Shown: positions 2,055 to 55,837 of the stretch, piece after piece
How the letters are laid out: the number at the start of each line of letters is the position of its first letter
How positions within the stretch are numbered: the stretch's first letter is position 1
IMG/VR virus record: IMGVR_UViG_3300011112_000003
Coordinates: 8,079-72,078 of that record
Length of the DNA: 64,000 bases
Source: a virus
Direction: 5' to 3' (one strand)
Made by a program: the position numbers and the translations under genes
Notes under the pieces: model-generated
Seen by the model: only the letters and a program-made list of their open reading frames with translations
What the model was told of the DNA's origin: nothing
Database searches by the model: none

Positions 2055-2495
2055 TTACCGTGCCGCCTTCGAGATCTCCGGTGCGCCCCCTACCTCGAAA
2101 TCGTCTTCTGACATTTCCACGCCGACGCGCTCGACCACGACTTCGGTGCCGTCAACGTTCACCGATGTGGGCAGATCGGGCCGCTCGATCGCGTCGCCGG
2201 TCTCGACGTCGATCTCGACGTCGGGCAGCCGGTAGTAGTGTAACCCGTCGCGCCCCTTGCGTATTTCATCGAAGCTAGTGGCCATGTGGGCCTCAGGTAC
2301 GAAGTTCCGGAGCGCGATACCGTAGGCGGCGGACGGCAACACACCTGCAGACCGCCCCTCACTCGCGGGGCGGTAGCGGGACGGTCGACGCTCACGTTTG
2401 GCGCTTTCGATCTCTAGGGACTGCAGCGTGGCGTGGTCACCCCGGACGGCGTCGCGTCTGGTGGTTACGCCTTTCCTGATCTGCCTCAGTCTCAT
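2055..2495 (-). CDS. Hypothetical protein, possibly head-associated
   Basis: ATGA overlap with the stop of the 1033-aa gene; carries IRKG (x2) and ISKA motifs like other head proteins. Confidence 0.55.
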   Translation of the reverse strand: MRLRQIRKGVTTRRDAVRGDHATLQSLEIESAKRERRPSRYRPASEGRSAGVLPSAAYGIALRNFVPEAHMATSFDEIRKGRDGLHYYRLPDVEIDVETGDAIERPDLPTSVNVDGTEVVVERVGVEMSEDDFEVGGAPEISKAAR

Positions 2496-5400
2496 GGTGT
2501 GATCCCCGCGTCTGCGAGCAACGTTGCCGTGATGTTTGTCACCTGCCCCGCAGTAAGCGCGCCCGTGGTGATGCCCGCGGAGCGCACTCGCCCGGCTAGC
2601 TCGTCGCCGTTCGTGTGGTTGGCCCCCATCGTTACCTGGTCCACCGGGCCGTCCCACGTGCCCGTCTTGGTCGTCGTTCCGATCTCGACGCCATCCTCGA
2701 AAAGGAACATGTCGCTACCGTCATACAAGCCCCGGTATAGGTGGTCACCAGCGATGTCCAAGCCGGAAATAGCTACAGCCAGCTCGAGCAGCGAACCCCC
2801 CGCACGCACCGCAAAAACCAGATCGGTCCCAACCTGCGCGATGTAGGCGATGGTCTGCGCACCTGACTGGTCCCATGCGTTGATCACATGGCGGGTAGCC
2901 GAGACCTCGTCGTCGAAACTAGCGACAGCGAACAGGCTGACCACCGTAGTCGAGCCCCCCGCCCATAGGTCCGTGGCGGCGGTGCCCACCAAGTGCGTAG
3001 TGCCTAAGAAGTCCACCCAGTTGATGCCACCGATGCGGGTCAGGTCAGGGGGCGCTGCACCGGTGTCCGTAGGGTCGCAGTTGTGGTAGCGGTCGATCAG
3101 GGTCTCCACCTTCACCGAAGGCGAAGCAGCTTCCATCGCGCGGTCCGATGCCGTGATGTAGAAGGCACCCTCGGCCCCGGCAATGTCTACGAAGTCGTCG
3201 ACGCCATGCGTGAGCCCGTTGTCGGTTTCCATGTAGGTGTCCATGTCCGCGATCTCTTGTGCGGTGAGGGTCCCAGTGGCAAGCCAACAAGCACCTAGAA
3301 ACCCGTTGAAGACTAGGCCGGGAATCGTCTTTTTTCCTAGGGAGACCTCGGAGCAATCGAGAGTTAGCGTTCCAGTCTTAGGGGTACTCGCCGCGGACAC
3401 CCCGTTTACGTACACCGTAATATTCGACCCGTCGTAGTGAACCCGGTACACCTGAAGAGCACTGGGCGTGGTGGTCACATCTACGAACGACGACGAGCCC
3501 CCAGCATTCACCGACGCCCTTAGCTCGGTAGCTGAGTTAGATAGCACCCGGATGCCCGATTCATCCGCTAGTCCATCACCGAACGATACCGCCACGTCCG
3601 TGTTGCTCGGGTCCCTCCACCTAGCACTAAACCAAAGGTTGATTTCGGTCTCCCCTGAGTCCCAAAGATTCTCGGTCGCGGTGCCCTCTAGAAACTGTAC
3701 CAAACCGTCGTCGAAGTCCCCGCAAGGGATGTCGTTCAGGTAGACTATGTGGGGCTGCCGGGTAACCGTAGCCTGCGAGACGCTGCAGTTGTTCGGCCCC
3801 ACCGCATCGGTTAGCTCCGCGGTATCCGGATAGGTGCCCGCTACGCGGCCGGTGAAGTCCACGCCGAACACGAACTTGTTACTAATCGAAAGCGGATACA
3901 GATCCTGATTCACCAGCTCAAGCGTGACCGCGATGCGCCGAGCGCTGATATCTCCGGACCCCACCCTGTCGGTGAATAGATCGATCAGCGGCTCGGCGCC
4001 GAACACGAAGGGTACGAGCAGGTCGCACCCGAGCGCGGTGTAGTTCTCGAAGGGTTGGAACCAGTCGGCCACCTCGTCGCCGTCAATCGTGAGCAGCGCC
4101 GTGGCGCCGCCGTCAGGGCCGCCCGAGCCCCACGTGGCCGCTGTGTCCGTCTTCAACTCCAGCGCCGCCGTAACTCGGTACTCGCCCGATAGCAGCGGCG
4201 TGGCCTGCAGCGGCTCGGCTAGGATAGTCTCAGGGCCGGCGCCGTCATTGGTGATCGGCCCGATCGCCTTGGCGGTTTGGATGACTCCCAATGCAGCCAG
4301 CGCGGCTATCTTCGCGTCGGTGTCGTCACGAACTTCGACGATCGCCGCTTGCACTTCGATTGCTGCGATGTCCCCGTCAGGCGTGAACGTGACCAGAGCG
4401 GCGCTGTAGTCCCCGGCATTAGCCAAGACGATCCCAGTCCGGTCGAACACGCTAAGCACCGAGCTAGAGCCCCCCAAAACGCCCGTCGAAATCGGCACAA
4501 ACTTTGCTTGAGCAGGGTTCGATAGGTCAGTCGCATTCCCCTTGACGATGATAGCGGTTCGCCGAGTGTTCTTTATGTCGGCGACGGCCGGGACGGTCAC
4601 CGGGTTCTCGGTAAACAGCGCACTTTCAGCAGCCGCGAGCGTGTTGTACTCTGCCTGGCCGATTGTTAGGGCAGTGCCGTTATTGGAAAAGTCCATCCAA
4701 TAGATGGCCCAGTTGTTCATCCCAACTGGCTGCAGCGTGTCTGAGCCATCGTCCCAGAAGCCAGCAGGTACATCAGTCTGGAACGTGAGGTTGAAGCCGC
4801 CTGCCTGCGTAGAGTCGATGTATGACTGGAGGAAGAATGGGACCGGGTCTTGTGCAGGGTTCGGCTGCTCGTTCGGGTTCGTGATGCTAAACGCACCATT
4901 GAGAAACGGCAGGTGTGTGGAGCCTGCAGACTTAGAAATCGTCAGGTCGGACGCGGCCGCTGTGTACTGGTTTCCCTCATTGACGGAGCCCAACTTCTTC
5001 GCATAGTCGACAAGCGCCTGGGACACATTGGCCGCGGGTTGCTGTTCGGTTGGTATGCTCGTGATGTTCGCATTGTCCACGTGGACCACGGCTTGGATGC
5101 ACGCGTTAGTACGGCGCGACACTGGGTCAGGAGCAACGTTCGTCTTGACCAGTCCTCCGTCCGGGGCAATCGCCAACGACGTGAACAACGTGGTGGCTAG
5201 GTCTAGCGGGTCCTCACCTATAAACGGCCCGAAGTCGACACGAGTCGGAGATACGGTTGGGTTGTTGGGATCGACGTGCATGGCAACGCCTGCCGCCACG
5301 TCGAACTTTGAAGGGTCTCCTCCGTTCACGGTGACCCGGCCGCCGGATATGATCCCTGTGCTGGAACTCGCGCCTACATAGAAAACCTCACCCAGTAGCG

Positions 5401-5593
5401 CGCCACTGATCGCTATCTCGGTCGCCGACTGCACGACACCGATGCCGTTAGTACCGACTATGCTGCGGAACTCTAACGCAACGCCATTCTTCTGCGCGAA
5501 GACGCCCGCTCCTCCCCCTAGGTTGGTGCCAGTGTTATCCTCACCGACTGAGGCGGGCGAGCCAAGCAGCGCTCGGGTCAGGATGGGCATCAA
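2492..5593 (-). CDS. Large virion structural protein with two C-terminal LamG/concanavalin-like domains (fibre or decoration protein)
   Basis: 1033 aa, Gly/Ala/Thr-rich; two repeats ending 'YDGS...xYxxGV...KTGT...xLG'; structural-operon context. Confidence 0.75.
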   Translation of the reverse strand: MMPILTRALLGSPASVGEDNTGTNLGGGAGVFAQKNGVALEFRSIVGTNGIGVVQSATEIAISGALLGEVFYVGASSSTGIISGGRVTVNGGDPSKFDVAAGVAMHVDPNNPTVSPTRVDFGPFIGEDPLDLATTLFTSLAIAPDGGLVKTNVAPDPVSRRTNACIQAVVHVDNANITSIPTEQQPAANVSQALVDYAKKLGSVNEGNQYTAAASDLTISKSAGSTHLPFLNGAFSITNPNEQPNPAQDPVPFFLQSYIDSTQAGGFNLTFQTDVPAGFWDDGSDTLQPVGMNNWAIYWMDFSNNGTALTIGQAEYNTLAAAESALFTENPVTVPAVADIKNTRRTAIIVKGNATDLSNPAQAKFVPISTGVLGGSSSVLSVFDRTGIVLANAGDYSAALVTFTPDGDIAAIEVQAAIVEVRDDTDAKIAALAALGVIQTAKAIGPITNDGAGPETILAEPLQATPLLSGEYRVTAALELKTDTAATWGSGGPDGGATALLTIDGDEVADWFQPFENYTALGCDLLVPFVFGAEPLIDLFTDRVGSGDISARRIAVTLELVNQDLYPLSISNKFVFGVDFTGRVAGTYPDTAELTDAVGPNNCSVSQATVTRQPHIVYLNDIPCGDFDDGLVQFLEGTATENLWDSGETEINLWFSARWRDPSNTDVAVSFGDGLADESGIRVLSNSATELRASVNAGGSSSFVDVTTTPSALQVYRVHYDGSNITVYVNGVSAASTPKTGTLTLDCSEVSLGKKTIPGLVFNGFLGACWLATGTLTAQEIADMDTYMETDNGLTHGVDDFVDIAGAEGAFYITASDRAMEAASPSVKVETLIDRYHNCDPTDTGAAPPDLTRIGGINWVDFLGTTHLVGTAATDLWAGGSTTVVSLFAVASFDDEVSATRHVINAWDQSGAQTIAYIAQVGTDLVFAVRAGGSLLELAVAISGLDIAGDHLYRGLYDGSDMFLFEDGVEIGTTTKTGTWDGPVDQVTMGANHTNGDELAGRVRSAGITTGALTAGQVTNITATLLADAGITP

Positions 5594-39889: not shown

Positions 39890-39895
39890 TCTTTG

Positions 39896-41326: not shown

Positions 41327-41841
41327 CCTATCTTCACCTTCAGCCCTAGTAAGGCGCTGTGATAATCAAACTCCGGGTCAGCCCGCTTCGCCGCACTGAC
41401 GTCGAGACATGCCTGGAAATGCGCATCATCCATGTGTCTCCAGTGCTTCGGCATGTCGACCATCGGGATTTTGTGAACGGACGCATAAAGCGCCATGGCC
41501 TCATCGGAGAGCCGGGTCTTCATCGACGCCGTCACTGAATAGAGGTCGACGGACCCGCCGTCACCGACGCGGGCGGACAACACGTACATCACGTCGTCTT
41601 CGTCCTCTTCCTTGCGGACGAATGCGTCTTGCTTCGAGAACGACACCCCCTTGCGGAGATCGCGGAACCCCACCGCAACCTCAGTGAGGTCTCCACATCT
41701 CACCATGCCGGCTAGCAGTTCGCCAATGTCCCACGGCCAGCAGCACGTCTTAGAGTCGGGCACCTCCGCGCTTTCGGTAGTCGAGTCGATCTTGTTCTTG
41801 CTTGGCTTGTTCACCGGGTCGGTCTTCGAGGGGTCGGTCAT
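41323..41841 (-). CDS. Hypothetical protein
   Basis: 172 aa. Confidence 0.6.
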   Translation of the reverse strand: MTDPSKTDPVNKPSKNKIDSTTESAEVPDSKTCCWPWDIGELLAGMVRCGDLTEVAVGFRDLRKGVSFSKQDAFVRKEEDEDDVMYVLSARVGDGGSVDLYSVTASMKTRLSDEAMALYASVHKIPMVDMPKHWRHMDDAHFQACLDVSAAKRADPEFDYHSALLGLKVKIG

Positions 41842-43576
41842 TTCGGTTCTTTCTCCAGATGCCCTTGTAGGCTCGGTGCAGCATCGAGAACGCGAGTGGG
41901 AACTGCATCATGATAAGCTTGCGCTCGTACAGGTAGAGCCGCGTCAGCTCGGCCGCGTTCTCGATCGGCGCGGTCTGCGCGTAGGGACTCACGAACCCTT
42001 CCCGCTTGCTGACCCCGAACAGTTTCTTGTGCCATTTGATAACCGGCGCTTCTCCACCCCAGCAGTACATGAGCCACACGTTCAGGGAGTGGCCCAACTC
42101 GTGTTCCAGCACATGCTTCAGGCGTGCCAACGGTAGTGTACCGGATACTCGGATTTCGTTGCCGGTCCAGTAGGCGAGGTCGTGGTCCTCCATGGCGTTG
42201 TCGACGCGCGGTTGGTCTTCGCAGATAAGCGTGACACCCACGCGCCTGTCGAATATCTCGGGAGGCGTTCGGTCTATCACCGCCTGGGCCACAGACAGCT
42301 TCTGCGGATCACCTATGCGGATGGCGCAACCACGCTCGGGCACGACGTTCCCCCAGGTCAGGTGCGCTTTGCGTAGGTCGCCCGGTAGCAGCTGCGAGCG
42401 CAACAGACTCTGCGGCATGAGATCGCCATCTTCGTTGAAGCCCCAGCCGTTCGGTACATGGATAAGTTCGCAAGAACACCAAGGGTGGATAGGGCCTATC
42501 GTCGCTTGCCACGCGCTTTGCTTCTTACCGACGTTCGTGCCGTTCGCCTGTAGCTCGGACAGCTTGAAGATACGCAGGGGCGAGCCTTCACCGGAGGTGT
42601 AGTGAAGGGCCACGCACCTCGGACAGGCGCCGGGCGATGGTTGCTTCGCCACATTGATTTCGTCTGGGTCGCCCTCGCGTTCGATGAGCCCTGCGGTGAG
42701 CCCCTGCTGCATGGCGCTCTGCTTCTCGGTTGCTGAGATACGCTTGAAGTCTCGCGCCCAGTCCTGCGTGCGGTGCCCGAGGTCGCTCGCCAGCTTCCGC
42801 CAACTCTCCTGGCGCTCGATGTTCATATCCAACTCGTCGCGCACATCCGCCTGATATTTCGCGCGCAGCACAGCATCCGCCTCGACCGCGATGGTACTGA
42901 AGTCGTCGCCCACTCGGTTGCCCAGGCCTACGATGGTGTTCGCCGCATTGCCCGATGCCCAGGTGCGCGCGGCCTGCTCTTGGGTAGATAGGGTTGGGTC
43001 GCCGTACTTGGTGCGCCAGGGGTCCACGCCCAAGGTTGCCGCCTGTCCGCGCAGTTGCGGATCGCGTCCCATGGATATCCCGTAGTTGTACGCATCCGCG
43101 ATGGCCTGCGCGCTCGGTGGGGCAGTCTCGCCGGGCTCGGCCTGGTAGCTGGCCTTCATGTCCTGTGGGAGCACGCCGCTGTCGATGAGCCGCTGGATAT
43201 CCGCAGCGTCCACGTACTCCCCGCCCACCTGCGTCGCGATGAACGCTAGGTGGTAGTCGTTCACGATCCTGCGTATCTCCCGCAGGTGCTCCGGGTTGGC
43301 GATGGGGTCGTAGGGGCCCTCCGCCTTCTTCAGGCTATCATGGACTATCTTGGACTCCGCGTAATCGCGGATAACGCTGAGCATCTTATCTAGTTGCTTG
43401 CGGTATGCGCGCTCGAACTGCTCCGCGGACTGCTGCATTGCCTTGTAGTGCTGGAAAGTCCGCTCGGAGTACTTCACGCGCTCGGCTTTCAAGAGATACT
43501 CCGGGCCCATCACGTACTGCGCGAGTTCTAGGCGGTCCATGTCTGCTGGGGCGTCTATTGAGATATGTTTGGTCAT
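41750..43576 (-). CDS. MuF / SPP1 gp7-like head morphogenesis protein with C-terminal zincin metallopeptidase domain
   Basis: 'RDFKRISATE', 'ACPRC', 'GPIHPWCSC' (MuF); 'LEHELGH' (HExxH) plus 'FVSPYAQTAPIENAAE'. Confidence 0.85.
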   Translation of the reverse strand: MTKHISIDAPADMDRLELAQYVMGPEYLLKAERVKYSERTFQHYKAMQQSAEQFERAYRKQLDKMLSVIRDYAESKIVHDSLKKAEGPYDPIANPEHLREIRRIVNDYHLAFIATQVGGEYVDAADIQRLIDSGVLPQDMKASYQAEPGETAPPSAQAIADAYNYGISMGRDPQLRGQAATLGVDPWRTKYGDPTLSTQEQAARTWASGNAANTIVGLGNRVGDDFSTIAVEADAVLRAKYQADVRDELDMNIERQESWRKLASDLGHRTQDWARDFKRISATEKQSAMQQGLTAGLIEREGDPDEINVAKQPSPGACPRCVALHYTSGEGSPLRIFKLSELQANGTNVGKKQSAWQATIGPIHPWCSCELIHVPNGWGFNEDGDLMPQSLLRSQLLPGDLRKAHLTWGNVVPERGCAIRIGDPQKLSVAQAVIDRTPPEIFDRRVGVTLICEDQPRVDNAMEDHDLAYWTGNEIRVSGTLPLARLKHVLEHELGHSLNVWLMYCWGGEAPVIKWHKKLFGVSKREGFVSPYAQTAPIENAAELTRLYLYERKLIMMQFPLAFSMLHRAYKGIWRKNRNDRPLEDRPGEQAKQEQDRLDYRKRGGARL

Positions 43577-43773
43577 GGCAGCATGCTTCCCATCCCGCAA
43601 CCGAAGTTCCGCAGCTTGGCCTCGGCTCTCGTGATGCCCTCGCGGTCAGCCCGCTCCTGGTGGATGTCCCGCCCCGGGCTCTTGGTTGGGAGGTAGATCC
43701 GAGGCAGTCCTCGCGCTCCCCTGTTCCTCCGCATGCGGATGGCAAAGGCTTCGTTGGATAGGTTCTTAGTCAT
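43573..43773 (-). CDS. Leader-array protein 1
   Basis: MTKNLSNEAFAIRMRRNRGA; stop overlaps the MuF ATG. Confidence 0.75.
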   Translation of the reverse strand: MTKNLSNEAFAIRMRRNRGARGLPRIYLPTKSPGRDIHQERADREGITRAEAKLRNFGCGMGSMLP

Positions 43774-44099
43774 GAGTCCGATACCAATGATAGGGGGATG
43801 TTGATTGTCTTCGAGAAGATAACGAGGTCGCTCAGGCGCATGCTGACTTCGACGACTCCCGGTGATGTCTCGACCACCTCCGCAGACACCACCCCAGGCA
43901 TGGCCTCGACGCTCTTCTTGATGCCTCCCACAGTGGGCTTCCGCCATGGCCCTGCGCCCAGCATCAAGGCCTCCCACTGCTCAATGAACTCCGCGTACTG
44001 CTCCCCCTTTGTCATGACCGGTACACGGATCAGTCGCGGCTCTCCACGTTGCTCCCGCATACGATCTGCGTAGTCGTCGTTGGATAGGTTGTTCGTCAT
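43770..44099 (-). CDS. Leader-array protein 2 (baseplate-J/POTRA-like body)
   Basis: MTNNLSNDDYADRMREQRGE; body IKKSVEAMPGVVSAEVVETSPGVVEV. Confidence 0.75.
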   Translation of the reverse strand: MTNNLSNDDYADRMREQRGEPRLIRVPVMTKGEQYAEFIEQWEALMLGAGPWRKPTVGGIKKSVEAMPGVVSAEVVETSPGVVEVSMRLSDLVIFSKTINIPLSLVSDS

Positions 44100-44103
44100 T
44101 ATC

Positions 44104-44400
44104 TTAGGCCGTGTCCATACGTATCGTGAAGGACTGAATACTAGGCGCAGGGTCTCGGAGCCGCAGCTCGACGATGACCTCCCCTGGCACCCCACGAGTC
44201 ACCTTCGCACTCTCCACTCTGGGCATGCGTGCGGCAGCTTCTTTGATGTCGCTCAATGTCGGCGCCGGGGGGCGGAACAGCCCCGGCGAGAAGGCGCGGA
44301 TGTCTAGTAGGGGTGTGGACGACACCGGGAGCTTCGGTGGCTCCCCCCGTTGACGCCGGGCATGCTCGGCGAACTCCCTGTTGGATAGATCGTTGGTCAT
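44104..44400 (-). CDS. Leader-array protein 3 (baseplate-J/POTRA-like body)
   Basis: MTNDLSNREFAEHARRQRGE; body IKEAAARMPRVESAKVTRGVPGEVIVEL. Confidence 0.75.
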   Translation of the reverse strand: MTNDLSNREFAEHARRQRGEPPKLPVSSTPLLDIRAFSPGLFRPPAPTLSDIKEAAARMPRVESAKVTRGVPGEVIVELRLRDPAPSIQSFTIRMDTA

Positions 44401-44777
44401 GTCTTGTACTCCCGGATCACAGACTGCTTCGCGCCAAAATCCCATCCCAGGTAGTAGGTTGACCGTCGGTCGTAGTCGCGGGCCTCCGGGTTGGTCTTCA
44501 GGGGCTTCATGGGCATGCATACGGGTCGGTGGGTGTCCATCCAGCGCAAGGCTTGGATGTCTACCTGGCCTCGACTGAACCACGCCGCTCCTGGCTCTCT
44601 CCATGCCCGCTGTAATGCGGCTATCTCAGCATAGGCATCGGACAGGAGCATCACACGGCGGCCCCCTTGCTCGTCGTCGTACTCCAGTACGCAGTTGTCC
44701 GGCAGTGGGTAGAGTCTGAGTCCTGCGATCAGGATGTTGGTGCGGCCCTCCATCGGGGCTCTGGGATGTCTGGTCAT
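44397..44777 (-). CDS. Hypothetical protein inside the array, lacking the leader
   Basis: ATGA-coupled on both sides. Confidence 0.6.
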   Translation of the reverse strand: MTRHPRAPMEGRTNILIAGLRLYPLPDNCVLEYDDEQGGRRVMLLSDAYAEIAALQRAWREPGAAWFSRGQVDIQALRWMDTHRPVCMPMKPLKTNPEARDYDRRSTYYLGWDFGAKQSVIREYKT

Positions 44778-45148
44778 ATCTGCCTTCCAAGGTTCTGCCA
44801 GCCATCGGGCTCATGGTACTTGAGGAATGTGACGCGCCATAGGTCGGGGCCCGCCTCGCCCACGTGTAGCTTCACGTGGCTCACCAGTTCGCTCAGGTGG
44901 ACTACGCAATGGGACTTGTTCGAGATAGGCGAGCCGCGCTCGTCGGTGGGGCGCAATAGGATGCAGTCCTTAGGCAGTCCGATATCCTTTGCGAACTGCG
45001 GTAGCTCCGTGTGCTTGGGGGTCCAGGCGAGTACCCACATGGTGCGTCCGCGGATGGGTGGCGGGGCCTGCCCTCGCTTACACCGTTGGCGGCTGGCGAA
45101 GTCTTCGTTGGATAGACCTCGGGTCATGCGGTCCTCGATGTGCTTCAC
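44774..45148 (-). CDS. Leader-array protein 4
   Basis: (MKHIEDR)MTRGLSNEDFASRQRCKRGQ; GPDLWRVTF. Confidence 0.75.
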   Translation of the reverse strand: MKHIEDRMTRGLSNEDFASRQRCKRGQAPPPIRGRTMWVLAWTPKHTELPQFAKDIGLPKDCILLRPTDERGSPISNKSHCVVHLSELVSHVKLHVGEAGPDLWRVTFLKYHEPDGWQNLGRQI

Positions 45149-45606
45149 GTAGCGTACCCATCACAGGGCGTGACATGGCTCAGCCCCGCCAGCCCACATG
45201 CTGCATGGACTACCGACTGTAGGACTATGTTTTCCCTGCGCTCGCTGGCGTAGGGCTGGCGGTTGAGTTGGATAAGGCGGCCTTCAGGGCTCACCATGTT
45301 GACCGTGTACTGGTCGTCGTCATTGCCGGAACCGGGCCCGCTGAGCAACCCCGCGTTCAATGCCTTGACGTTCAGGAACGGACCGAAGCCATCGGAGATA
45401 AAGGCATGCTCCTTTTTCTCTGCATCCCACAGCGCCCACCTACCCGTGGCGATAGCGATGCTGTAGGTAAGCCTGTTTAGGTCGAGGGTCACTAGCCCGC
45501 CGGCTAGGCACTGTGTCATGACGACGGGTGGCCAGAACAATTGAGGCTCCCCTCGCCTCTCACGCATACGACTGGCAAAGTCTTCGTCGGATAAGTCTTG
45601 AGTCAT
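45145..45606 (-). CDS. Leader-array protein 5
   Basis: MTQDLSDEDFASRMRERRGE. Confidence 0.75.
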   Translation of the reverse strand: MTQDLSDEDFASRMRERRGEPQLFWPPVVMTQCLAGGLVTLDLNRLTYSIAIATGRWALWDAEKKEHAFISDGFGPFLNVKALNAGLLSGPGSGNDDDQYTVNMVSPEGRLIQLNRQPYASERRENIVLQSVVHAACGLAGLSHVTPCDGYAT

Positions 45607-45977
45607 AGCCGCTTGATGTCCAAGGTGGAGTGGTCGCCGGGGGGCACGATGGCATTCCTGCATTTCAGCTGAATCCGCGTAGGTACGTCGAACACCCAAG
45701 TCCCCCACAACCGCACAACTGCCGCCGGGCCACGCGCGGGGTGTGCGCTCGCAATAAAAATCCCTGTCGTGGCGTTGCTGAGATGCAGCGATGGAACAGC
45801 GCCTTCGTCACCCCAGCCCAGCATGGCCATGGCCGTGATCCTGTAGCTGCCGGGCGAATGGATGTCCGCACTCAGCAGCGTCTGCCACATCGGTGATTGC
45901 TGCTGCTGCTTCGGCAGTTCCCCCCGCTGCGCTCTCATGCGCTCGGCGTACGCTTCGTTGGATAGGCTTTGAGTCAT
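45603..45977 (-). CDS. Leader-array protein 6 (beta-sandwich body)
   Basis: MTQSLSNEAYAERMRAQRGE. Confidence 0.75.
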   Translation of the reverse strand: MTQSLSNEAYAERMRAQRGELPKQQQQSPMWQTLLSADIHSPGSYRITAMAMLGWGDEGAVPSLHLSNATTGIFIASAHPARGPAAVVRLWGTWVFDVPTRIQLKCRNAIVPPGDHSTLDIKRL

Positions 45978-46306
45978 TTCGATGGCTCGCAGCCAGGCCT
46001 GAACGTGACTTGCCAAATGTCCGGCCCGTCATCGCTCACTTCCACTTCATCCGCGTGGCTCCAGTGGCTCTCATGGACTGCCCGGAACCGGGCATCCGGT
46101 AGGGCAGCTCCCCTAGCGTCGCATTCGAGCATCACGACGAAACCATTCTCAAAGCCGGGGCTCGGACGGAATTCCTCGGGCAGATCCTTGTGATGCCTGC
46201 GCCACACCTGCATGCGGACTGGGCCCCGGCCCAATCGCTTGGGCGGCTCTCCCCTGTTGCTCCGCATGCGCGCCGCATAGCTGCTGTTGGATAATGCACG
46301 GGTCAT
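45974..46306 (-). CDS. Leader-array protein 7
   Basis: MTRALSNSSYAARMRSNRGE; GPDIWQVTF. Confidence 0.75.
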   Translation of the reverse strand: MTRALSNSSYAARMRSNRGEPPKRLGRGPVRMQVWRRHHKDLPEEFRPSPGFENGFVVMLECDARGAALPDARFRAVHESHWSHADEVEVSDDGPDIWQVTFRPGCEPSK

Positions 46307-46767
46307 CGGCGCGGCCGCTGCGTGATCTGCGCGTCTCCCACCGCCATCGCTTCGGCAAGATCTGTTACCCCCTGCTTTACTGTGATGGTGGCGATCAACA
46401 CCGCGGACATCAAATCGGGGTGCTCGACGTATGGCTCTGTATCAAAGGCAACTGCTGCTTCAGAGAGAGAGTCGTACACCACGAGCCCGTACACTGCGGT
46501 TGTGATGCCCTCCTTCCGCCAGTGGTACACCCGCTGGTTGTGGAACTTGCCTTCCGGAACGGGTACGGGCTCGGGCGCCCACGGGGGTTGGTAACGCTCA
46601 GGATCTATATCCTCACCCCGCTCGCCCCGAAAGGTCAGGTCACCGTCCGCGTTGACAAATGCGCAAGTCAACCCGGGCAACTCAGGCAGTCCCAGCGCCA
46701 GTGGCGATTCCCCACGCTTCCCACGCATGAGATTGGCGAATGCTGCGTTAGATAGGCCCTGGGTCAT
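46303..46767 (-). CDS. Leader-array protein 8 (body similar to a domain of the 1033-aa virion protein)
   Basis: MTQGLSNAAFANLMRGKRGE. Confidence 0.75.
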   Translation of the reverse strand: MTQGLSNAAFANLMRGKRGESPLALGLPELPGLTCAFVNADGDLTFRGERGEDIDPERYQPPWAPEPVPVPEGKFHNQRVYHWRKEGITTAVYGLVVYDSLSEAAVAFDTEPYVEHPDLMSAVLIATITVKQGVTDLAEAMAVGDAQITQRPRR

Positions 46768-47123
46768 ACCATCCACTTCCCCATGCTCGTAGTCCAGCCC
46801 GGCGGGGTGAGTCCGGGCAGGAAGGATATCTCGCAGATGTCGGGCTGCTCTGGCAGCAGGCTCCGGGCCTTGAACTTGAACCGCGCCTCATCCAAATCGG
46901 TCCAGGGCACCACAAATCGTTGGATGCTTCGGATCCACGCCCCGTTATCCCACACCATCGTGACCATCATCTCGTCTTCGCCTATCTCGCCCCATGGGCA
47001 GCCCACCGGCAGTACGTGCGTGCTGCAGTGCATGGTCGCTTGGAACCACCAGCGTCTGATAGGTTCTTCGCGTTTGCTCCGCATGTGGTTGGCGAACGCA
47101 TTGGGGGATAGGTCTTGGGTCAC
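46764..47123 (-). CDS. Leader-array protein 9
   Basis: GTG start, MTQDLSPNAFANHMRSKREE; QPDICEISF. Confidence 0.72.
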   Translation of the reverse strand: MTQDLSPNAFANHMRSKREEPIRRWWFQATMHCSTHVLPVGCPWGEIGEDEMMVTMVWDNGAWIRSIQRFVVPWTDLDEARFKFKARSLLPEQPDICEISFLPGLTPPGWTTSMGKWMV

Positions 47124-47497
47124 AGGCGCCCGTACTCTTCCACGAGCAGTCGCGGTGATCCGCCGCGCACCAACCCCCCAGTCACCCGCATGTATATCTT
47201 GCGGTCCATGGCCCATGCGTATCGATCGCTGAGCGCCATGGTGTGCCATTCATCGGCGGGCACCGTCATGCGTATCTCCTGAAGCAGACCCGACATATCA
47301 TACAAGCTGAGGATGACTTCGCCCGGGCCCCGCACAATGACACTGACCGTCACACAGTAGGTGTTCCCATCGCCCGGTACGATGGCCTCACCCAGGTTGT
47401 TGATATTGAACTTTGGGGCGGGCAAGCGCATCAGGGGCTCCCCACGGCGCGCCCGCATGTGATTCGCATAGCGCAGGTTGGATAGGCTTTGGGTCAC
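47120..47497 (-). CDS. Leader-array protein 10 (paralog of 11)
   Basis: GTG start, MTQSLSNLRYANHMRARRGE. Confidence 0.75.
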   Translation of the reverse strand: MTQSLSNLRYANHMRARRGEPLMRLPAPKFNINNLGEAIVPGDGNTYCVTVSVIVRGPGEVILSLYDMSGLLQEIRMTVPADEWHTMALSDRYAWAMDRKIYMRVTGGLVRGGSPRLLVEEYGRL

Positions 47498-47892
47498 GCG
47501 ATGGGCTCCACGAGTATGCGCCACGATCCTTCGCGCACCGTACCCCCGGTCACGCGCAGGTAGATCTTGCGGTCCGAGCTGCAGGTGTAGTGATGGCGGA
47601 GCCCCACGACGCGCCACGAGTCGCTGTCCAGATCCTCGCGCCAATCCTCCAGCATGCCCGCCCTGTCGTACAGCCCTACGATGACGGCGCTGGGGCCCTT
47701 CACCCAGAGGGAGCCCTTCACGTGGACATGCGCCATCACGCTGTATGTCCTCATGTCCCCCGTGATCGTGGCCTCTGCTACGTTATTGATATTGAACGGC
47801 TGTTGGATAGGAGCGGGCTCCGGTGGCTGCCCGCGGAGTAGGCGCATGTGCTCGGCGTACGCCCCGTCGGATAAGGTCGTTGTGTCTACCAT
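47494..47892 (-). CDS. Leader-array protein 11 (paralog of 10)
   Basis: MVDTTTLSDGAYAEHMRLLRGQ. Confidence 0.75.
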   Translation of the reverse strand: MVDTTTLSDGAYAEHMRLLRGQPPEPAPIQQPFNINNVAEATITGDMRTYSVMAHVHVKGSLWVKGPSAVIVGLYDRAGMLEDWREDLDSDSWRVVGLRHHYTCSSDRKIYLRVTGGTVREGSWRILVEPIA

Positions 47893-48284
47893 TCGCTGCA
47901 CGCTATGACTGTAGGGTTGGGGCCGGGCGTGTTCAGGAACGCGGTCCACATGTTGGTGACTCCCTTGTCCTCATCATCGTGATATTTGATGGTCAGTGCT
48001 TCGATGCGCCCGATCGAACTCGTCTCGCATTGCGACTCACGGCCCCAGTCCAGCTCCTCGGCGCTTTTCCAGGCCAGATCCGTCACAGCCGCCATGTCGG
48101 TGGTGTCGCCGCCTATCCACCACCGCACGTCCTCAATCTCCACCACGAACAATGTGTAGCCCTGCCTGTGGTGCCGCTCGCGCATCGGGTCGCTATGGAT
48201 AAGGCCTGCCTGCACTTGCCGCCTGCGTATCCTGAAGCGCACCGCGAGCGCATCGTTGGTGAGGTGGCGCGTGTCGTAGGGCAT
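47886..48284 (-). CDS. Leader-array protein 12 (divergent leader)
   Basis: MPYDTRHLTNDALAVRFRIRRRQ. Confidence 0.65.
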   Translation of the reverse strand: MPYDTRHLTNDALAVRFRIRRRQVQAGLIHSDPMRERHHRQGYTLFVVEIEDVRWWIGGDTTDMAAVTDLAWKSAEELDWGRESQCETSSIGRIEALTIKYHDDEDKGVTNMWTAFLNTPGPNPTVIACSEW

Positions 48285-48286
48285 TA

Positions 48287-48859
48287 CTACGCCAAACTCA
48301 GGGTGTGCCGGTGGAACGCGACGTCCATGGGGGCGAGGTACCAGAAGGTCAACGACACCACGGCCGTGTCTCGACTCTTCTGGTCGATATCCCCGACCTG
48401 GACTTCACGTATCTCACGGATGGCGGGTATGTCGCACAGCGCTACCAGCATGTCCCGCTCGGTAGGCTTACGTTCGGATATCACGTCCACCGAGCCCGAC
48501 CACTGGCGCCAAGTGCGCATGTCCGGCCGTAGCACGAACGGCACGCGCGAGAAGTCTACGTCGATTCCGTGAATGTCCGGCCAATAGCTGATCATGGTTC
48601 GCTGTTGGCCCGATGTGCTGGTGACCGTGCGGACCTTCAAGACCATGCTCGGGTTCCCAGGCAGGCCCGTGCCTAGGAGGGCCACAACCGAGCGTAGGAT
48701 ATCGTCTGGGTCTGCATTGGTGTCGAGGAAGCGATCGGCATGCACAAGCGCAACGCACCCCGCCCATACACGCGCGCCATGAGGGATGGGATCCAGCGGG
48801 TGCTTGCGAGTCGCACGCATGTGGCGCGCGAAGTCCTGATTGGATAGCGCGAGGGTCAC
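48287..48859 (-). CDS. Leader-array protein 13
   Basis: GTG start, MTLALSNQDFARHMRATRKH. Confidence 0.72.
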   Translation of the reverse strand: MTLALSNQDFARHMRATRKHPLDPIPHGARVWAGCVALVHADRFLDTNADPDDILRSVVALLGTGLPGNPSMVLKVRTVTSTSGQQRTMISYWPDIHGIDVDFSRVPFVLRPDMRTWRQWSGSVDVISERKPTERDMLVALCDIPAIREIREVQVGDIDQKSRDTAVVSLTFWYLAPMDVAFHRHTLSLA

Positions 48860-49110
48860 CCCCACCTCGCGCCAGATGCGCGCGCCCGCTCGCGCTCGCT
48901 CAGCTGGGATATGCCTGGCTTTGAGCGGCATCGCTTGCACACGGGGTTCATGTTCTTCGCGCGGTACTTGCGGCCGCACTCGTCACAGCGTGGCCAGTTG
49001 GCTCGCTTGTCTGGTCCCTTGACCTGTTTCTCGCGCACGCACCTCTTCACGCGCATGCGCTGAGCAAAGTCTTCGTCGGATAGGCCGCGCGTTGCTGAGT
49101 CGTTGTTCAC
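48856..49110 (-). CDS. Leader-array protein 14 (Zn-ribbon body)
   Basis: GTG start, MNNDSATRGLSDEDFAQRMRVKR; CDEC..CKRC. Confidence 0.7.
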   Translation of the reverse strand: MNNDSATRGLSDEDFAQRMRVKRCVREKQVKGPDKRANWPRCDECGRKYRAKNMNPVCKRCRSKPGISQLSERERARASGARWG

Positions 49111-49826
49111 AGCGCGCACTCCAGGTAGCAGACCAGTCCGTTGCCCCAGTCCATGCACCGCGAGCCCGGCAACCCTGTACAGTCGGCTTCGGTCGTGCAG
49201 CTCGGTGCCGCGTGGTCGTCGGTGCCTCCGGTGCCGCAGAAGGCAGCATCCCCGGTAGCCACCGACTGACCGCACGCCATGCCCACAGGGCACGCCTCGG
49301 GTGACGGCGGCCCGCAACAGAAGCTAGCGCAGTTCCCACACTCGCCTACCGGCCGCTCTTGCCCCGGGACACACGGCGCAAGCCGGCACGTAGGCCCCGT
49401 ATCACCATCCCCGTCGCCGTCTCCACGGTCCCCATCCCCAGCACCATCGCCGTCCCCGTCACCACTGCCGCCATCGCCGACCCCGCCGCCAGTGCCCGCA
49501 CCATCACCATCTCCGTCACCGTCCCCACCTCCATCGCTGCCACCAAGTAATCCCCCGCTATCCCCATTCCCGCCAGTGCCGTCCCCCAGGCCCACGCTAC
49601 CATCGTTCGGATAGTCGTCTTCGCAAGGAAGCCCACCGCAGGGATCACCGCGGTCACTCGGACCCCCAGCACCAGCAGATCCCATGCTGTCCACCCAATC
49701 ACCACTCCTATCCAAATCATCACTACCTCCGTCCTGACCACAGCACGCATTGTCTACGGCAACATCGCCGTCCGTGATTGCAGTGCAGCCCGTGAGCAGC
49801 GCCAAAATGATAATCAGATGTCCCAT
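49107..49826 (-). CDS. Myxobacterial-type lipoprotein with Gly-Asp repeats and Cys-rich C-terminus
   Basis: Lipobox IIILALLTGC; (GD)n tracts; many Cys. Confidence 0.75.
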   Translation of the reverse strand: MGHLIIILALLTGCTAITDGDVAVDNACCGQDGGSDDLDRSGDWVDSMGSAGAGGPSDRGDPCGGLPCEDDYPNDGSVGLGDGTGGNGDSGGLLGGSDGGGDGDGDGDGAGTGGGVGDGGSGDGDGDGAGDGDRGDGDGDGDTGPTCRLAPCVPGQERPVGECGNCASFCCGPPSPEACPVGMACGQSVATGDAAFCGTGGTDDHAAPSCTTEADCTGLPGSRCMDWGNGLVCYLECAL

Positions 49827-50245
49827 CACGCGGTCCCTCCTACCTGCCAGGCCGTCCACACCCACGCGCTACCATCCCAGATGCCTTCGCAACGTGAACC
49901 GCTGACGGTCTGGAATGTCCCTGTGATCTTCGAGGGGCCGTTCACCACTATTTTCTGTCCCCCGTCTTTTGCCCACTCCTTCCGCGCCTGTTCGTACTGC
50001 CTAAGTTCACCCGCGAACTCTTCGGCAGACATGGTGCGTACGTACACATCAGTATCTGCTATCTCGTCCCACTCGTAGACCTCACGGCAGGGACGACAAG
50101 GGGGCCCATACCAGACCACAGAGGTGTCAACCTCTTCGCTGACCTCGGCACGTATGAACGGTTCCCCCAGCCAGGGATCGGGGAAGGCTACCCCCAGCTC
50201 ACCCAACATCGCTTTGGCGCCCGCAAGATTGCTCAGATGTCCCAT
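49826..50245 (-). CDS. Hypothetical protein with a degenerate leader, flanked by 14-bp direct repeats
   Basis: MGHLSNLAGAKAMLGELG; TCAGATGTCCCATC at 49814 and 50233. Confidence 0.6.
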   Translation of the reverse strand: MGHLSNLAGAKAMLGELGVAFPDPWLGEPFIRAEVSEEVDTSVVWYGPPCRPCREVYEWDEIADTDVYVRTMSAEEFAGELRQYEQARKEWAKDGGQKIVVNGPSKITGTFQTVSGSRCEGIWDGSAWVWTAWQVGGTA

Positions 50246-50979: not shown

Positions 50980-51002
50980 AGCTCGGTCCTCCCCCAAGTC
51001 CT

Positions 51003-54109: not shown

Positions 54110-55837
54110 TCAGCTCCCTACGTCGATTTCGATGTGTCGACGGCCCTCTGCGACCGACTCGCGCCGCTCGGATTTTCGTAGTTCCTCTGCGACGATATTG
54201 GAGACCGTCAGGGATGCCGCAAGTGCCTCAGCCTGCGAATCCGCAAACCCCCCATCGCCCCCATCACCATCCTGGTCGGCGGGCTCGTCGTCACCGCCAT
54301 CGCCGGGCTCGTCGTCGCCAAACAGATCGTCGTTATCCTCCGACCCATCGCTTTCGCCCGCGCCCAAGTCCTCACCATTGCCGTCGGTGCCCTCCTGGGC
54401 CGACTTGTTCGCCTGCCACACAGTGTTCAGGATAACCTGACCCAGCCCGTCGGGTAGCGGCTCCAAGTCCTGCTCCGCGCGGATCTCATCGACGTACTTC
54501 CAGTTCTCCACCTCAGTCTTGCGGCGCTCACGCTCTTTGCCTTCCGCCTTCGCGTCGAGGCCCGTGAACTGGAACTCTAGCTCGGGCGCTAGCTCCCAGA
54601 TGAGGTGGCGATTGATATTGTCGGAGACGTGATCAGCAAGCGGCGCGAGCCCCTTGTCCTTCGACTCGACCACCTCCGCTTCGTTCGGTCGGGACTGGCT
54701 GAGGCTCGACGTCTGTCCGCTGTTGCCAAAGATGAAGTTGATCTCCGTCGGGTCAACGCCGTAGATCGCACAGATCAGCTTCGTGAGCCAATCCATCCAC
54801 TGGCCGTACTCCATCTCCCGATTGTTGGTGTGCATGTTGATCCACTGCACCTCCTCGGAGTTTAGGATAGGAGTTTTCCACGCGTTCTGGACGCCCGTGA
54901 TCATCGAATACCACATGCGCCGGAACGCACGGAGCTGCCGGTCGGGTAGGGAACCCTTGATATTTAGGATCCCCTTGATGGCGCTACCCTGCGTGAAAAA
55001 TCTTGTATTATATTCAAAACCGTACAGCCACGCGGTCACCAAGCGCACGATCTGTTCAGTCGGAGCGAAGCCAAAACCATTCGTGCGCAGGTCCGAACGC
55101 GGGTTCATGACGCACCATGCAAGGTCGTCGACCCCGAACTCGGCGATGACTGAGTTGTCGTAGACCTGCAGGTGGGACACCCGGCTGCGCAGCTCGGACG
55201 TCGTCATGTGCTCGGTGTCCGCGACCGCGGGGCGGATGGTCTCTGCGGGCAAGCAGATAAAGCGCGAGGGGCGCTGCGCCCGGTCGCGGATCTTCTCGAA
55301 GCACCATTGGTCGTATGTGAGGATATCGCGCGTCGACTTCTTTATGAACATGCGGAAGCTGTCACGATCGGATGGCCGCTCATCGGGCTGCAGGAACGCA
55401 GTCGTTTCGAGCATGGCTTCCAGCTGGGCCGCTTGCCTTTGCTCAGACGAGGTCATCTTGACCATGTTGTCGCGGCGGTCCCGCTTGATGATCCTGTAAC
55501 CCTTATCGTAGACACCCTGCTGCGGGCGCGCGAAGGCCGCGAGCTGATTGGTGCGCAACTGGATGATCGCTGCGATCACCGTGTTCTGCACCGCCATCTG
55601 CCGCAGCGATTCGTAGGTCAAACTGCTCGGTCGCTGGCGCCAACCCCCCCAATCCATCACTGAGTACGGATCGTGAAAAAGAGCCCTTGGCTTCTCGTCT
55701 GTGGGTTGCGCCAACGTACCAAAACCCGTCGACGCGAGCGCCTTCTGCATCTCGTCGAAGGGCACATCCTCCTGGCTAGTGTCCTGCCAACTGACCAGTT
55801 CACGAGCAGTGCCTGCGATGTCACCGATAAGTCCCAT
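54110..55837 (-). CDS. Portal protein
   Basis: 'AAIIQLRTNQ', 'TRDILTYDQ', 'NPRSDLRTNGFGFAP', 'NTRFFTQGS', 'REMEYGQW', 'YGVDPTEINF', 'SKDKGLAPL' match the Twort/SPO1-type portal. Confidence 0.93.
   Translation of the reverse strand: MGLIGDIAGTARELVSWQDTSQEDVPFDEMQKALASTGFGTLAQPTDEKPRALFHDPYSVMDWGGWRQRPSSLTYESLRQMAVQNTVIAAIIQLRTNQLAAFARPQQGVYDKGYRIIKRDRRDNMVKMTSSEQRQAAQLEAMLETTAFLQPDERPSDRDSFRMFIKKSTRDILTYDQWCFEKIRDRAQRPSRFICLPAETIRPAVADTEHMTTSELRSRVSHLQVYDNSVIAEFGVDDLAWCVMNPRSDLRTNGFGFAPTEQIVRLVTAWLYGFEYNTRFFTQGSAIKGILNIKGSLPDRQLRAFRRMWYSMITGVQNAWKTPILNSEEVQWINMHTNNREMEYGQWMDWLTKLICAIYGVDPTEINFIFGNSGQTSSLSQSRPNEAEVVESKDKGLAPLADHVSDNINRHLIWELAPELEFQFTGLDAKAEGKERERRKTEVENWKYVDEIRAEQDLEPLPDGLGQVILNTVWQANKSAQEGTDGNGEDLGAGESDGSEDNDDLFGDDEPGDGGDDEPADQDGDGGDGGFADSQAEALAASLTVSNIVAEELRKSERRESVAEGRRHIEIDVGS

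What the first reader, a model, noticed from the sequence alone, without database searches (positions are those of the whole stretch)
46303..46767. One array payload resembles an internal domain of this phage's own 1033-aa virion protein
Seen in sequence: the body 'PVPVPEGKFHNQRVYHW...AVYGLVVYDSLSEAAVAFDTEPYVEHPDLMSAVLIATITVKQGVTDL...AQI' aligns by eye with 'LQPVGMNNWAIYWMDF...LTIGQAEYNTLAAAESALFTENPVTVPAVADIKNTRRTAIIVKGNATDL..AQAKF' of ORF 2492..5593 (about nt 4490-4780). Shared pattern: G..Y.[ST]L..A..A..TE....P......I.VK...TDL. The divergence suggests capture from another phage's homologue. Inference: the leader is appended to isolated virion-protein fragments. These could be decoys for host sensors of structural proteins, dominant-negative inhibitors of competing phages, or swap-in modules.
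Basis: partly seen in the sequence, partly recalled or inferred. Interest (0 to 1): 0.85.

Follow-up and report, generated by a model that had tools for sequence, protein, structure and literature searches.

The report
Leader-tagged stand-alone tail-fibre subdomain gene
A small phage gene encodes a short leader shared by many genes of this phage, fused to one excised piece of a tail-fibre building block that the phage's own large fibre protein carries whole, so the resemblance is real although its purpose is unknown.

Summary
The ORF at 46303-46767 (minus strand, 154 aa) is a 22-aa shared leader plus a ~115-aa body. The body is homologous to residues ~254-368 of the phage's 1033-aa fibre protein (2492-5593).

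- **Pairwise:** not significant (BLASTP E=9.8; 86 of 500 shuffles score as high).
- **External hits:** all 103 non-self hits among 1.84 billion representatives are internal segments of 256-3716-aa proteins, several of tail-fibre type.
- **Module:** the body is only the C-terminal subdomain of a ~300-aa fibre module that is almost always whole (155 of 165 occurrences). No solved structure or curated family covers it.
- **Second fragment:** another array gene (45145-45606) matches the module's N-terminal subdomain (hhalign E=2e-5 to 6e-6). The other 19 leader or array proteins do not match.

The origin is unresolved. The two copies share 19% identity and are not sisters in the best trees, but the AU test does not reject sisterhood. 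There is no DNA similarity to the fibre gene, which argues against swap-in recombination.

The function is inferred only: most likely a cargo domain addressed by a common docking leader. The same scan had already noted the array on this same genome.

The parts
46303..46767 (-). Payload gene (154 aa plus stop): leader, Pro-rich linker and fibre-module C-terminal subdomain
   Evidence: ORF and translation. ATGA overlaps at both ends. GC by codon position is 0.68/0.46/0.68, like the other genes.
46702..46767 (-). Shared leader, residues 1-22 (MTxxLSNxxFAxxMRxxRGE-type)
   Evidence: Present on 15 ORFs of the genome by motif scan. In the AF2 model it is low-confidence, with a short helix at 7-14. 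The invariant Ala and Arg columns use 4-5 synonymous codons.
46315..46671 (-). Fibre-module C-terminal subdomain of the payload (residues 33-151). Some foreign hits extend the match back to residue 20.
   Evidence: hhalign E=7.8e-22. phmmer gives 103 foreign hits. pLDDT is about 90 or more across the body. BFVD gives 26 matches at E<=1e-3.
2492..5593 (-). 1033-aa fibre-like virion protein
   Evidence: Laminin_G_3 E=8.7e-11. It lies between the major capsid gene 7133-8545 (SU10_MCP) and the tail-fibre gene 236-1351 (phrog_772). It carries the module shared with tail-fibre PHROGs.
4490..5362 (-). Whole ~300-aa fibre module inside the 1033-aa protein (residues ~78-368)
   Evidence: Alignment A3. 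Module profile E=8e-76. AF2 model has mean pLDDT 80.4.
4490..4834 (-). Part of the fibre module homologous to the payload (residues 254-368)
45145..45606 (-). Second leader-tagged fragment (153 aa). Residues 30-136 match the N-terminal subdomain of the same module (fibre residues 78-173).
   Evidence: hhalign probability 76, E=2.3e-5. Local hhalign probability 85.6, E=5.6e-6, with 0 of 60 shuffles at E<=1e-3. hmmsearch E=0.0051.
43573..49110 (-). Array of 14 leader-bearing, mostly translationally coupled small genes plus one gene without a leader (44397-44777)
   Evidence: Paralogue pairs inside the array are shown.
54110..55837 (-). Portal gene, upstream context of the array
   Evidence: phrog_12 E=6.2e-49.
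41750..43600 (-). 616-aa gene immediately downstream of the array; possible minor head protein (weak) with an HExxH motif
   Evidence: phrog_115 E=0.0084 only, and no Pfam hit. The motif is seen in the translation.

Best explanation
Shown:
- 46303-46767 is an intact, coding-like small gene.
- Its product has three parts: a 22-aa leader that at least 15 ORFs of this phage share, a Pro-rich linker, and a confidently folding alpha/beta domain.
- That domain is the C-terminal subdomain of a widespread, uncharacterised ~300-aa phage tail-fibre module.
- The phage's own 1033-aa fibre carries one complete, very divergent copy of the module (19% identity).
- A second array gene (45145-45606) carries the module's N-terminal subdomain.
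- Both fragments begin or end at module or subdomain boundaries, directly after the leader and linker.

Inferred:
- The fragment was excised from a fibre gene, either an old duplicate or a foreign homologue, and was exapted as a cargo domain.
- The leader is an amphipathic docking helix on a flexible linker. It gives all array proteins a common fate.
- The most likely fate is attachment to, or packaging into, the virion during head and tail morphogenesis, because the array lies in one coupled operon between the portal gene and a possible minor head gene. The logic is that of the T4 capsid-targeting sequence on diverse internal proteins, or of short N-terminal anchors on interchangeable receptor-binding proteins.
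- What the fibre subdomain does once delivered (auxiliary adhesin, decoy, assembly competitor) is not known.
For: - Homology.
- Fold: payload model has mean pLDDT 84.2 and pTM 0.77, with 101 of 154 residues at 90 or more. It has the same order of secondary-structure elements as fibre residues 254-368.
- BFVD: 26 matches at E<=1e-3, all inside 363-1397-aa phage proteins, TM by query 0.50-0.72.
- Family is fibre-type: 5 of 8 hits tested match phrog_16641 'tail fiber protein' and 4 of 8 match phrog_5668 over the module. One hit ends in Peptidase_S74. The module hits the annotated 1775-aa tail fibre of Stenotrophomonas phage DLP_6.
- Not decaying: the payload keeps all 9 nearly invariant residues of alignment A1, has ATGA coupling on both sides, and has a coding-like GC pattern.
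- The fragment is unusual: 155 of 165 module occurrences in 103 proteins are whole modules. The 10 partial ones include insert-split matches and copies at a protein end.
- The leader is conserved at the protein level: the invariant Ala and Arg columns use 4-5 synonymous codons.
- Context: portal upstream, and a weak minor-head-protein hit downstream.
Against: - There is no expression or virion-proteome data, and no RNA run holds the stretch.
- The leader also heads genes outside the morphogenesis region: 22446-22865 among replication genes, 61755-62159 before the terminase gene, and a degenerate copy on a 341-aa TPR membrane protein at 50233-51258. This fits a general tag or regulatory element better than a capsid-only signal.
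- The Leu-Ser of the leader is encoded YTA-TCC in 13-14 of 15 copies, against 14.7% and 19% genome-wide. Part of the conservation is therefore at nucleotide level.
- No prohead protease or leader receptor was identified.
- The downstream 'minor head protein' call is weak (E=0.0084) and there is no Pfam Phage_Mu_F hit.
- No related phage with the leader was found, so there is no comparative test.
- Both models used the same 32 homologues as alignment. They could be compared only by secondary-structure strings, because no coordinates were available for superposition.
Confidence: 0.45

Rival explanations
1. Chance resemblance: the by-eye alignment is noise between two unrelated proteins.
For: Pairwise statistics are at chance level: BLASTP E=9.8, and 86 of 500 shuffles reach the Smith-Waterman score.
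Against: Independent profiles link the two in both directions: E=5.2e-17, E=1.2e-27 and hhalign E=7.8e-22. 19 other leader or array proteins score E>=0.06, and 0 of 60 shuffles reach 1e-3.
Confidence: 0.02
2. Inert remnant: a leftover piece of a broken fibre gene that happens to remain open and has no function of its own.
For: It is a fragment of a module that is otherwise nearly always whole (155 of 165). Phage genomes do carry recombination scars of fibre genes. There is no expression evidence.
Against: - The reading frame is intact and bounded exactly by coupled ATGA overlaps.
- All 9 nearly invariant family residues are retained.
- The predicted fold is confident and the GC pattern by codon position is coding-like.
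- Homology begins right after the leader and linker and runs to the module's end, with only about 3 residues left before the stop. This looks like a clean domain-level fusion.
Confidence: 0.1
3. Decoy or competitor: the free subdomain mimics a fibre surface. It would either titrate a host immune sensor that recognises fibre domains, or poison fibre assembly of a co-infecting related phage.
For: Fibre knob domains can determine activation of a defence system. The bioRxiv preprint 10.64898/2026.06.04.730250 (abstract, introduction and sections 6 and 10 seen as passages) reports that side-tail-fibre knob variation sets sensitivity to type II Thoeris. The payload is closer to the family consensus than the phage's own copy: 39% against 19% best identities, though that comparison is biased by how the hits were chosen.
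Against: There is no defence context, no known sensor of this module, and no test. At 19% identity to the phage's own fibre it would be a poor mimic of that fibre. The hypothesis does not explain why 12 other payloads with the same leader show no fibre similarity.
Confidence: 0.15
4. Recombination reservoir: the array stores alternative fibre pieces that are swapped into the fibre gene to change host range.
For: Two different pieces of one fibre module sit in the array. One contig of a second metagenome (X2) joins 43750 to 44077, skipping 326 nt, which is exactly one leader-to-leader unit. This is weak support: depth 3.3, likeness threshold 80, and the joint lies in a repeat.
Against: - There is no DNA similarity to the fibre gene: longest exact match 11 nt, against a shuffle mean of 10.2 and maximum of 13.
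- The pieces have their own start codons, leader and translational coupling.
- They lie in reverse order relative to the module and lack its middle part.
- No recombinase or reverse transcriptase was noted in the genes that were scanned.
Confidence: 0.05
5. The leader is mainly a nucleic-acid or translational control element, marking a regulon of genes. The payload would then be an ordinary accessory protein whose fate is not set by the peptide.
For: The Leu-Ser pair is encoded YTA-TCC in 13-14 of 15 copies despite 14.7% and 19% use genome-wide. Leader copies are scattered over functionally different regions. There are 0 sigma-70-like promoters in 15 kb.
Against: Five or more amino-acid columns are invariant or nearly so while their codons vary freely. 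The leader, Pro-rich linker and domain architecture is that of a peptide docking motif.
Confidence: 0.2

Closest known systems
Tail-fibre module of PHROG families phrog_16641 and phrog_5668 ('tail fiber protein'), for example the 1775-aa tail fibre of Stenotrophomonas phage vB_SmaS-DLP_6
   Same: The payload body is a sequence and fold homologue of the C-terminal ~115 aa of this ~300-aa module.
   Different: The payload is 154 aa, stand-alone, lacks the first two thirds of the module, and carries an unrelated leader. Neither the payload nor the 1033-aa protein reaches any PHROG at E<=0.01 directly. The module itself has no Pfam, NCBIfam or PDB relative.
T4 capsid-targeting sequence on the diverse internal proteins of T-even phages
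   Same: A short conserved N-terminal leader sits on otherwise unrelated small proteins encoded together. [quoted passage not shown]
   Different: No sequence comparison with the T4 leader was made. No prohead protease, cleavage or virion location is shown here. The leader here is about twice as long, is followed by a Pro-rich linker, and also heads genes outside the head region, including a membrane protein.
Multi-receptor-binding-protein systems with a conserved N-terminal anchor and variable distal domains (Klebsiella phages, Ackermannviridae).
   Same: A shared front end on interchangeable back ends of tail-fibre origin.
   Different: Those anchors are folded domains of roughly a hundred residues on large fibres or spikes. 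Here the shared part is 22 aa and the cargo is a single subdomain. Only 2 of 21 cargos look fibre-derived.
MuF-domain polymorphic toxins of temperate phages (Jamet et al. 2017, PMC5576092).
   Same: Variable cargo linked to the head-morphogenesis locus next to the portal gene.
   Different: The payload has no MuF domain. The neighbouring 616-aa protein matches a minor-head-protein PHROG only weakly (E=0.0084) and does not match Pfam Phage_Mu_F. No toxin or immunity features were seen.

Membership tests
Phage tail-fibre module (phrog_16641 / phrog_5668 type) | Significant profile match to the module | tested here: met
   Profile of 141 foreign segments E=2.6e-43. Fibre-seeded profile E=1.2e-27. 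hhalign E=7.8e-22.
Phage tail-fibre module (phrog_16641 / phrog_5668 type) | Conserved core residues (YG..Y..L..A..A..TE ... TDL) | tested here: met
   All 9 nearly invariant columns of alignment A1 carry the payload's residue. The motif is visible in the alignments.
Phage tail-fibre module (phrog_16641 / phrog_5668 type) | Complete ~300-aa module | tested here: not met
   The payload covers profile positions 188-293 of 296 only. 155 of 165 occurrences elsewhere are complete.
Phage tail-fibre module (phrog_16641 / phrog_5668 type) | Embedded in a large fibre protein | tested here: not met
   The payload is a 154-aa ORF with its own start and stop. All 103 foreign hits are 256-3716 aa.
Phage tail-fibre module (phrog_16641 / phrog_5668 type) | Direct hit to the PHROG models | tested here: not met
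   0 PHROG families at E<=0.01 for the payload and for the 1033-aa protein. The link runs through intermediate hits.
T4-type capsid-targeted internal proteins | Short conserved N-terminal leader on diverse bodies | tested here: met
   15 ORFs share the leader, and the bodies are mostly unrelated.
T4-type capsid-targeted internal proteins | Leader removed by the prohead protease | not testable with these tools
   No protease gene was identified. There are no proteomic data.
T4-type capsid-targeted internal proteins | Protein present inside the capsid and ejected with the DNA | not testable with these tools
   The phage is uncultured and no virion data exist.
T4-type capsid-targeted internal proteins | Sequence similarity to the T4 leader | not tested
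   The T4 leader sequence was not fetched by any search.
Anchor-plus-variable-domain receptor-binding proteins | Folded N-terminal anchor domain that docks on the tail | tested here: not met
   The shared part is 22 aa, and residues 1-5 and 16-27 have pLDDT below 50 with one short helix.
MuF polymorphic toxins | N-terminal MuF domain on the same polypeptide | tested here: not met
   The payload has no Pfam family at E<=0.1.

The most novel reading that the evidence does not exclude
The array is a plug-in addressing system of a new phage lineage. A 22-aa docking helix on a proline-rich tether delivers interchangeable cargo domains to one common site, either on or in the virion or on a host target. 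The cargos include two subdomains excised from a tail-fibre module. The fibre fragments would act as free mimics of fibre surfaces: decoys for fibre-sensing immunity, or auxiliary adhesins.
Probability: 0.2. Interest if true: 0.85.

Novelty: new variant of a known kind. Interest (0 to 1): 0.6.

Why it matters
- It shows that a resemblance which is invisible to pairwise tests is real, and that it links a tiny leader-tagged gene to a widespread but uncharacterised tail-fibre module.
- It gives the first functional handle on two of the array's cargos.
- Stand-alone subdomains of a fibre module were not seen in any of the 103 other hit proteins.
- If the shared leader proves to be an addressing tag, the locus would be a natural system for delivering arbitrary small domains to a phage particle or target. 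The fibre fragments would then be candidates for decoys or accessory adhesins.
- The module itself has about 300 aa, more than 100 representative clusters, and no solved structure, so it is a worthwhile structural target.

Tried and rejected
**Searches for relatives**
- The array DNA has no blastn match among 50,697 phage records.
- The payload has no tblastn match there at 1e-3.
- The terminase reaches only 33.5% identity, so there is no close kin to compare.

**Searches for the leader elsewhere**
- Leader DNA patterns gave 1 stretch (chance) and 0 stretches in viral contigs.
- They gave 5 single, non-N-terminal chance matches in metagenome contigs.
- The search for related loci with the 616-aa neighbour found nothing.

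**Foldseek and family libraries**
- Foldseek against the PDB gave 0 of 133 matches at E<=0.001 for the payload and 0 of 550 for the module. The weak top rows (lactococcal phage 1358 receptor-binding protein, Mtd) are not significant.
- A PDB sequence-profile search of A3 gave 0 hits.
- NCBIfam gave 0 families for 6 proteins.

**Other payloads**
- The search for homologous proteins with 'longer' lengths found nothing for 45148-45606, 48290-48859 and 47123-47497. This is weak evidence because the search is word-based.
- The protein atlas was uninformative for 45148-45606 (best score 0.92, unnamed clusters) and for the leader (best score 0.79).
- phmmer of the 21 leader or array bodies against all ORFs of the genome found only paralogue pairs inside the array, plus a weak hit of 45145-45606 to the fibre (E=0.018).

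**Binding, expression and signals**
- Complex prediction of the payload with 45148-45606 gave no answer.
- No RNA holder is listed for the stretch.
- The promoter and terminator scan found 0 sigma-70-like promoters and terminator-like sites at chance level.

**Tree**
- The free 'quick' tree placed the fibre domain in a 5-row set (SH-aLRT 97) without the payload.
- The constrained tree was better, with AU p=0.62. I therefore dropped the claim that the payload cannot be a sister of the phage's own fibre domain.
- For the 44-row careful tree I kept the 14 nearest rows to each query plus 14 random rows, out of 127.

**Literature**
- I ran two literature searches. Neither was designed to show that such fragments are undescribed, so I make no claim of absence from print.
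- No supplementary files were consulted.
Full report
**Setting**

The window is 64 kb of a 72,078-bp single-contig phage genome. Nearly all genes lie on the minus strand. Recognisable genes are:
- large terminase, 59970-61721;
- portal, 54110-55837;
- a helicase and a thymidylate synthase in the middle;
- an SU10-type major capsid protein, 7133-8545;
- a 1033-aa protein with two Laminin_G_3 stretches, 2492-5593;
- a tail-fibre protein, 236-1351 (phrog_772).

The phage has no close kin among 50,697 GenBank phage records. Its terminase reaches at most 33.5% identity there.

Between the portal gene and a 616-aa gene lies an array at 43573-49110. The 616-aa gene matches a minor-head-protein PHROG only weakly (E=0.0084). 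The array holds 14 small genes whose products all begin with an MTxxLSNxxFAxxMRxxRGE-type leader, plus one gene without it. Most neighbours overlap as ATGA or GTGA. The finding concerns one member, 46303-46767.

The ORF is as described: 154 aa from the ATG at 46767, with ATGA overlaps at both ends.

Pairwise, the resemblance to the 1033-aa protein is not significant.
- 86 of 500 shuffles of the body reach its Smith-Waterman score of 40.

A phmmer search of 1.84 billion representative proteins found 104 proteins at E<=1e-3.
- One is the gene itself, as called from Met14.
- The other 103 are 256-3716 aa long and match payload residues ~20/52-140 with internal segments, often 2-3 times per protein. 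The best has E=1.4e-21.

A profile of 141 such segments contains nothing from this genome. Searched against all 1095 six-frame ORFs of at least 40 aa in the genome, it hits the payload (E=2.6e-43) and residues 250-364 of the 1033-aa protein (E=5.2e-17), and nothing else below 0.02.

The reciprocal test agrees. A profile seeded from fibre residues 60-375 and iterated on the same foreign set hits the payload at E=1.2e-27.

hhalign of the payload against the fibre-seeded alignment A3 gives probability 99.4, E=7.8e-22 and 114 columns.

**What the domain is**

Alignment A3 shows that the fibre protein and the hits share a larger module of about 300 aa (fibre residues ~78-368). The payload corresponds only to its last ~115 residues.

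In the 103 foreign proteins the module profile finds 165 occurrences.
- 155 are complete.
- The 10 partial ones include matches split by inserts and copies lying at a protein end.
- None is a stand-alone C-terminal subdomain.

The module is of tail-fibre type.
- 5 of 8 hits tested match phrog_16641, and 4 of 8 match phrog_5668, both 'tail fiber protein', over the module.
- One hit ends in a Peptidase_S74 chaperone domain.
- The module matches the annotated 1775-aa tail fibre of Stenotrophomonas phage DLP_6 at 29.9% identity, and a hypothetical protein of Streptomyces phage Yara.

The module is otherwise uncharacterised.
- No Pfam or NCBIfam family covers it.
- The PDB has no sequence relative.
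- Foldseek finds no PDB match at E<=0.001 for either model.

AlphaFold2 folds the payload body confidently: mean pLDDT 84.2, about 90 or more across the body, and a leader of low confidence with a helix at 7-14. It also folds the module well (mean pLDDT 80.4). The order of strands and helices in payload 33-150 equals that in fibre 254-367.

Against predicted viral structures the payload model has 26 matches at E<=0.001. All lie inside 363-1397-aa phage proteins, with TM by query of 0.50-0.72.

Two caveats apply. Both models used the same 32 homologues as alignment. I could compare them only through secondary-structure strings.

**A second fragment**

I compared all 21 leader or array proteins with the module alignment.
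- Only two match: the payload (E=7.8e-23) and 45145-45606.
- For 45145-45606, local hhalign gives probability 85.6 and E=5.6e-6; the tool version gives 76% and E=2.3e-5; hmmsearch gives E=0.0051.
- The other 19 score E>=0.06.
- 0 of 60 shuffles of either protein reach 1e-3.

In 45145-45606, residues 30-136 align with fibre 78-173. That region is the N-terminal beta-rich subdomain, starting exactly at the module's first conserved motif.

The array therefore holds two different subdomains of one kind of fibre module. Each is placed directly after the leader and a Pro-rich linker. They lie in reverse order, two genes apart, and the module's middle part is missing.

**Origin**

- Payload and own fibre domain share 19% identity over 112 columns.
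- The payload reaches 39% to foreign modules, and the fibre domain reaches 38%. The foreign set was selected by similarity to the payload, which biases this ranking.
- The quick 129-row tree does not pair them.
- The careful 44-row tree does not pair them either. There the fibre domain groups with four foreign rows at 82/81 support, and the payload is unresolved.
- However, the AU test does not reject a payload+fibre clade (p=0.62), and the constrained tree was 10.3 log-likelihood units better than the short free search.

The payload is therefore not a recent copy of the fibre gene. Whether it is an old internal duplicate or a capture from another phage cannot be decided.

At DNA level the two genes share no more than shuffled sequence does: 11 nt, against a shuffle mean of 10.2.

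**Is it a working gene?**

Four points argue against an inert remnant:
- the open frame is bounded by coupled overlaps;
- all nine nearly invariant residues of the family are retained;
- the predicted fold is confident;
- the GC pattern by codon position, 0.68/0.46/0.68, resembles that of other genes.

No RNA data exist for the stretch.

**The leader**

- Its invariant Ala and Arg columns use 4-5 synonymous codons, so the peptide is under selection.
- Its Leu-Ser pair is encoded YTA-TCC in 13-14 of 15 copies, against 14.7% and 19% use in 12 long genes. A nucleotide-level constraint is therefore superimposed.
- Leader copies also head genes elsewhere: 22446-22865, 38747-38926, 51251-51613, 61755-62159, and a degenerate form on the TPR membrane protein at 50233-51258.
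- I found no leader-bearing relatives in viral or metagenome contigs.

**How it most likely works**

The architecture is a short amphipathic helix, a proline-rich tether and a folded cargo domain. It is repeated on many unrelated cargos in one coupled operon beside the portal gene. That is the architecture of an addressing tag.

The closest documented logic is the T4 capsid-targeting sequence, the only conserved element on the diverse internal proteins of T-even phages (PMC3012670 section 6, passages seen). Short anchors on interchangeable receptor-binding proteins are a second analogue; this one is recalled, not read.

I therefore read the payload as an exapted fibre subdomain that the leader delivers to a common site, most likely the virion. 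This is inference, and I give the mechanism about one chance in three.

The evidence against it is:
- leader copies occur on a membrane protein and in the replication region;
- the leader carries a nucleotide-level signal;
- no protease or receptor has been identified.

A decoy role is conceivable, because fibre knob domains can set the activation of type II Thoeris (bioRxiv 10.64898/2026.06.04.730250, passages seen). Nothing here tests it.

A recombination-reservoir role is disfavoured by the lack of DNA similarity. One low-depth contig of a second metagenome does skip exactly one leader-to-leader unit (43750 to 44077), which hints weakly at cassette loss by recombination between leaders.

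**Verdict**

- The resemblance is real, deep homology.
- The payload is a unique stand-alone subdomain of an uncharacterised tail-fibre module, and it is joined by a second fragment in the same array.
- Its function, and that of the leader, remain inferred.
- I rate it a new variant of a known kind: modular phage proteins with a shared N-terminal tag, built by fibre domain shuffling.
- Interest is 0.6.
- The same scan had already noted the array itself on this same genome (e1-6199723, e1-6199719).

Noticed in passing
window 38890-49083 (15 leader copies): The leader's Leu-Ser is encoded CTA or TTA (14 of 15 copies) followed by TCC (13 of 14). In 12 long genes, CTA plus TTA make up only 14.7% of Leu codons and TCC 19% of Ser codons. 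A YTATCC nucleotide element is therefore conserved inside the leader, on top of the peptide conservation.
   Followed up: partly
window 43750-44077: One contig of a second, sediment metagenome (X2) joins these two points, skipping 326 nt. That is exactly the distance between two neighbouring leaders. It could mark loss of one cassette by leader-leader recombination. The evidence is weak: depth 3.3, and the joint lies in a repeat.
   Followed up: no
window 51983-52591 and 41750-43600: Two proteins with HExxH motifs flank the array region: HEMLH in a 202-aa protein with an N-terminal hydrophobic segment, and HELGH near the C-terminus of the 616-aa protein. Neither has a Pfam match. They might be metalloproteases.
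   Followed up: partly
window 46306-46728: One public gene call for this ORF starts at Met14 (141 aa, P0002) and so hides the leader. Another source calls the full 154 aa, and that copy is listed with a longest contig of 63,814 bp.
   Followed up: partly
window 7133-8545 versus 54110-61721: The head genes are split. Terminase and portal lie about 45 kb from the major capsid gene, with replication and nucleotide-metabolism genes between them, all on one strand.
   Followed up: no
window 41000-56000: There is no sigma-70-like promoter in 15 kb, against 3.3 expected from shuffles. This fits a host or phage with another promoter type.
   Followed up: no
window 47120-47886; 44774-45127 and 45974-46306; 43770-44400: Three pairs of array payloads are paralogues: E=2e-23/5e-24, 3e-8/1.5e-7 and 4e-5/9e-5. 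The array therefore also grows by tandem duplication and divergence.
   Followed up: partly
hit proteins P0003, P0004, P0005 and others (not in the window): The ~300-aa fibre module occurs two or three times in tandem in many large proteins: 165 occurrences in 103 proteins. It has no solved structure or curated family, so it is an uncharacterised, common fibre building block.
   Followed up: partly
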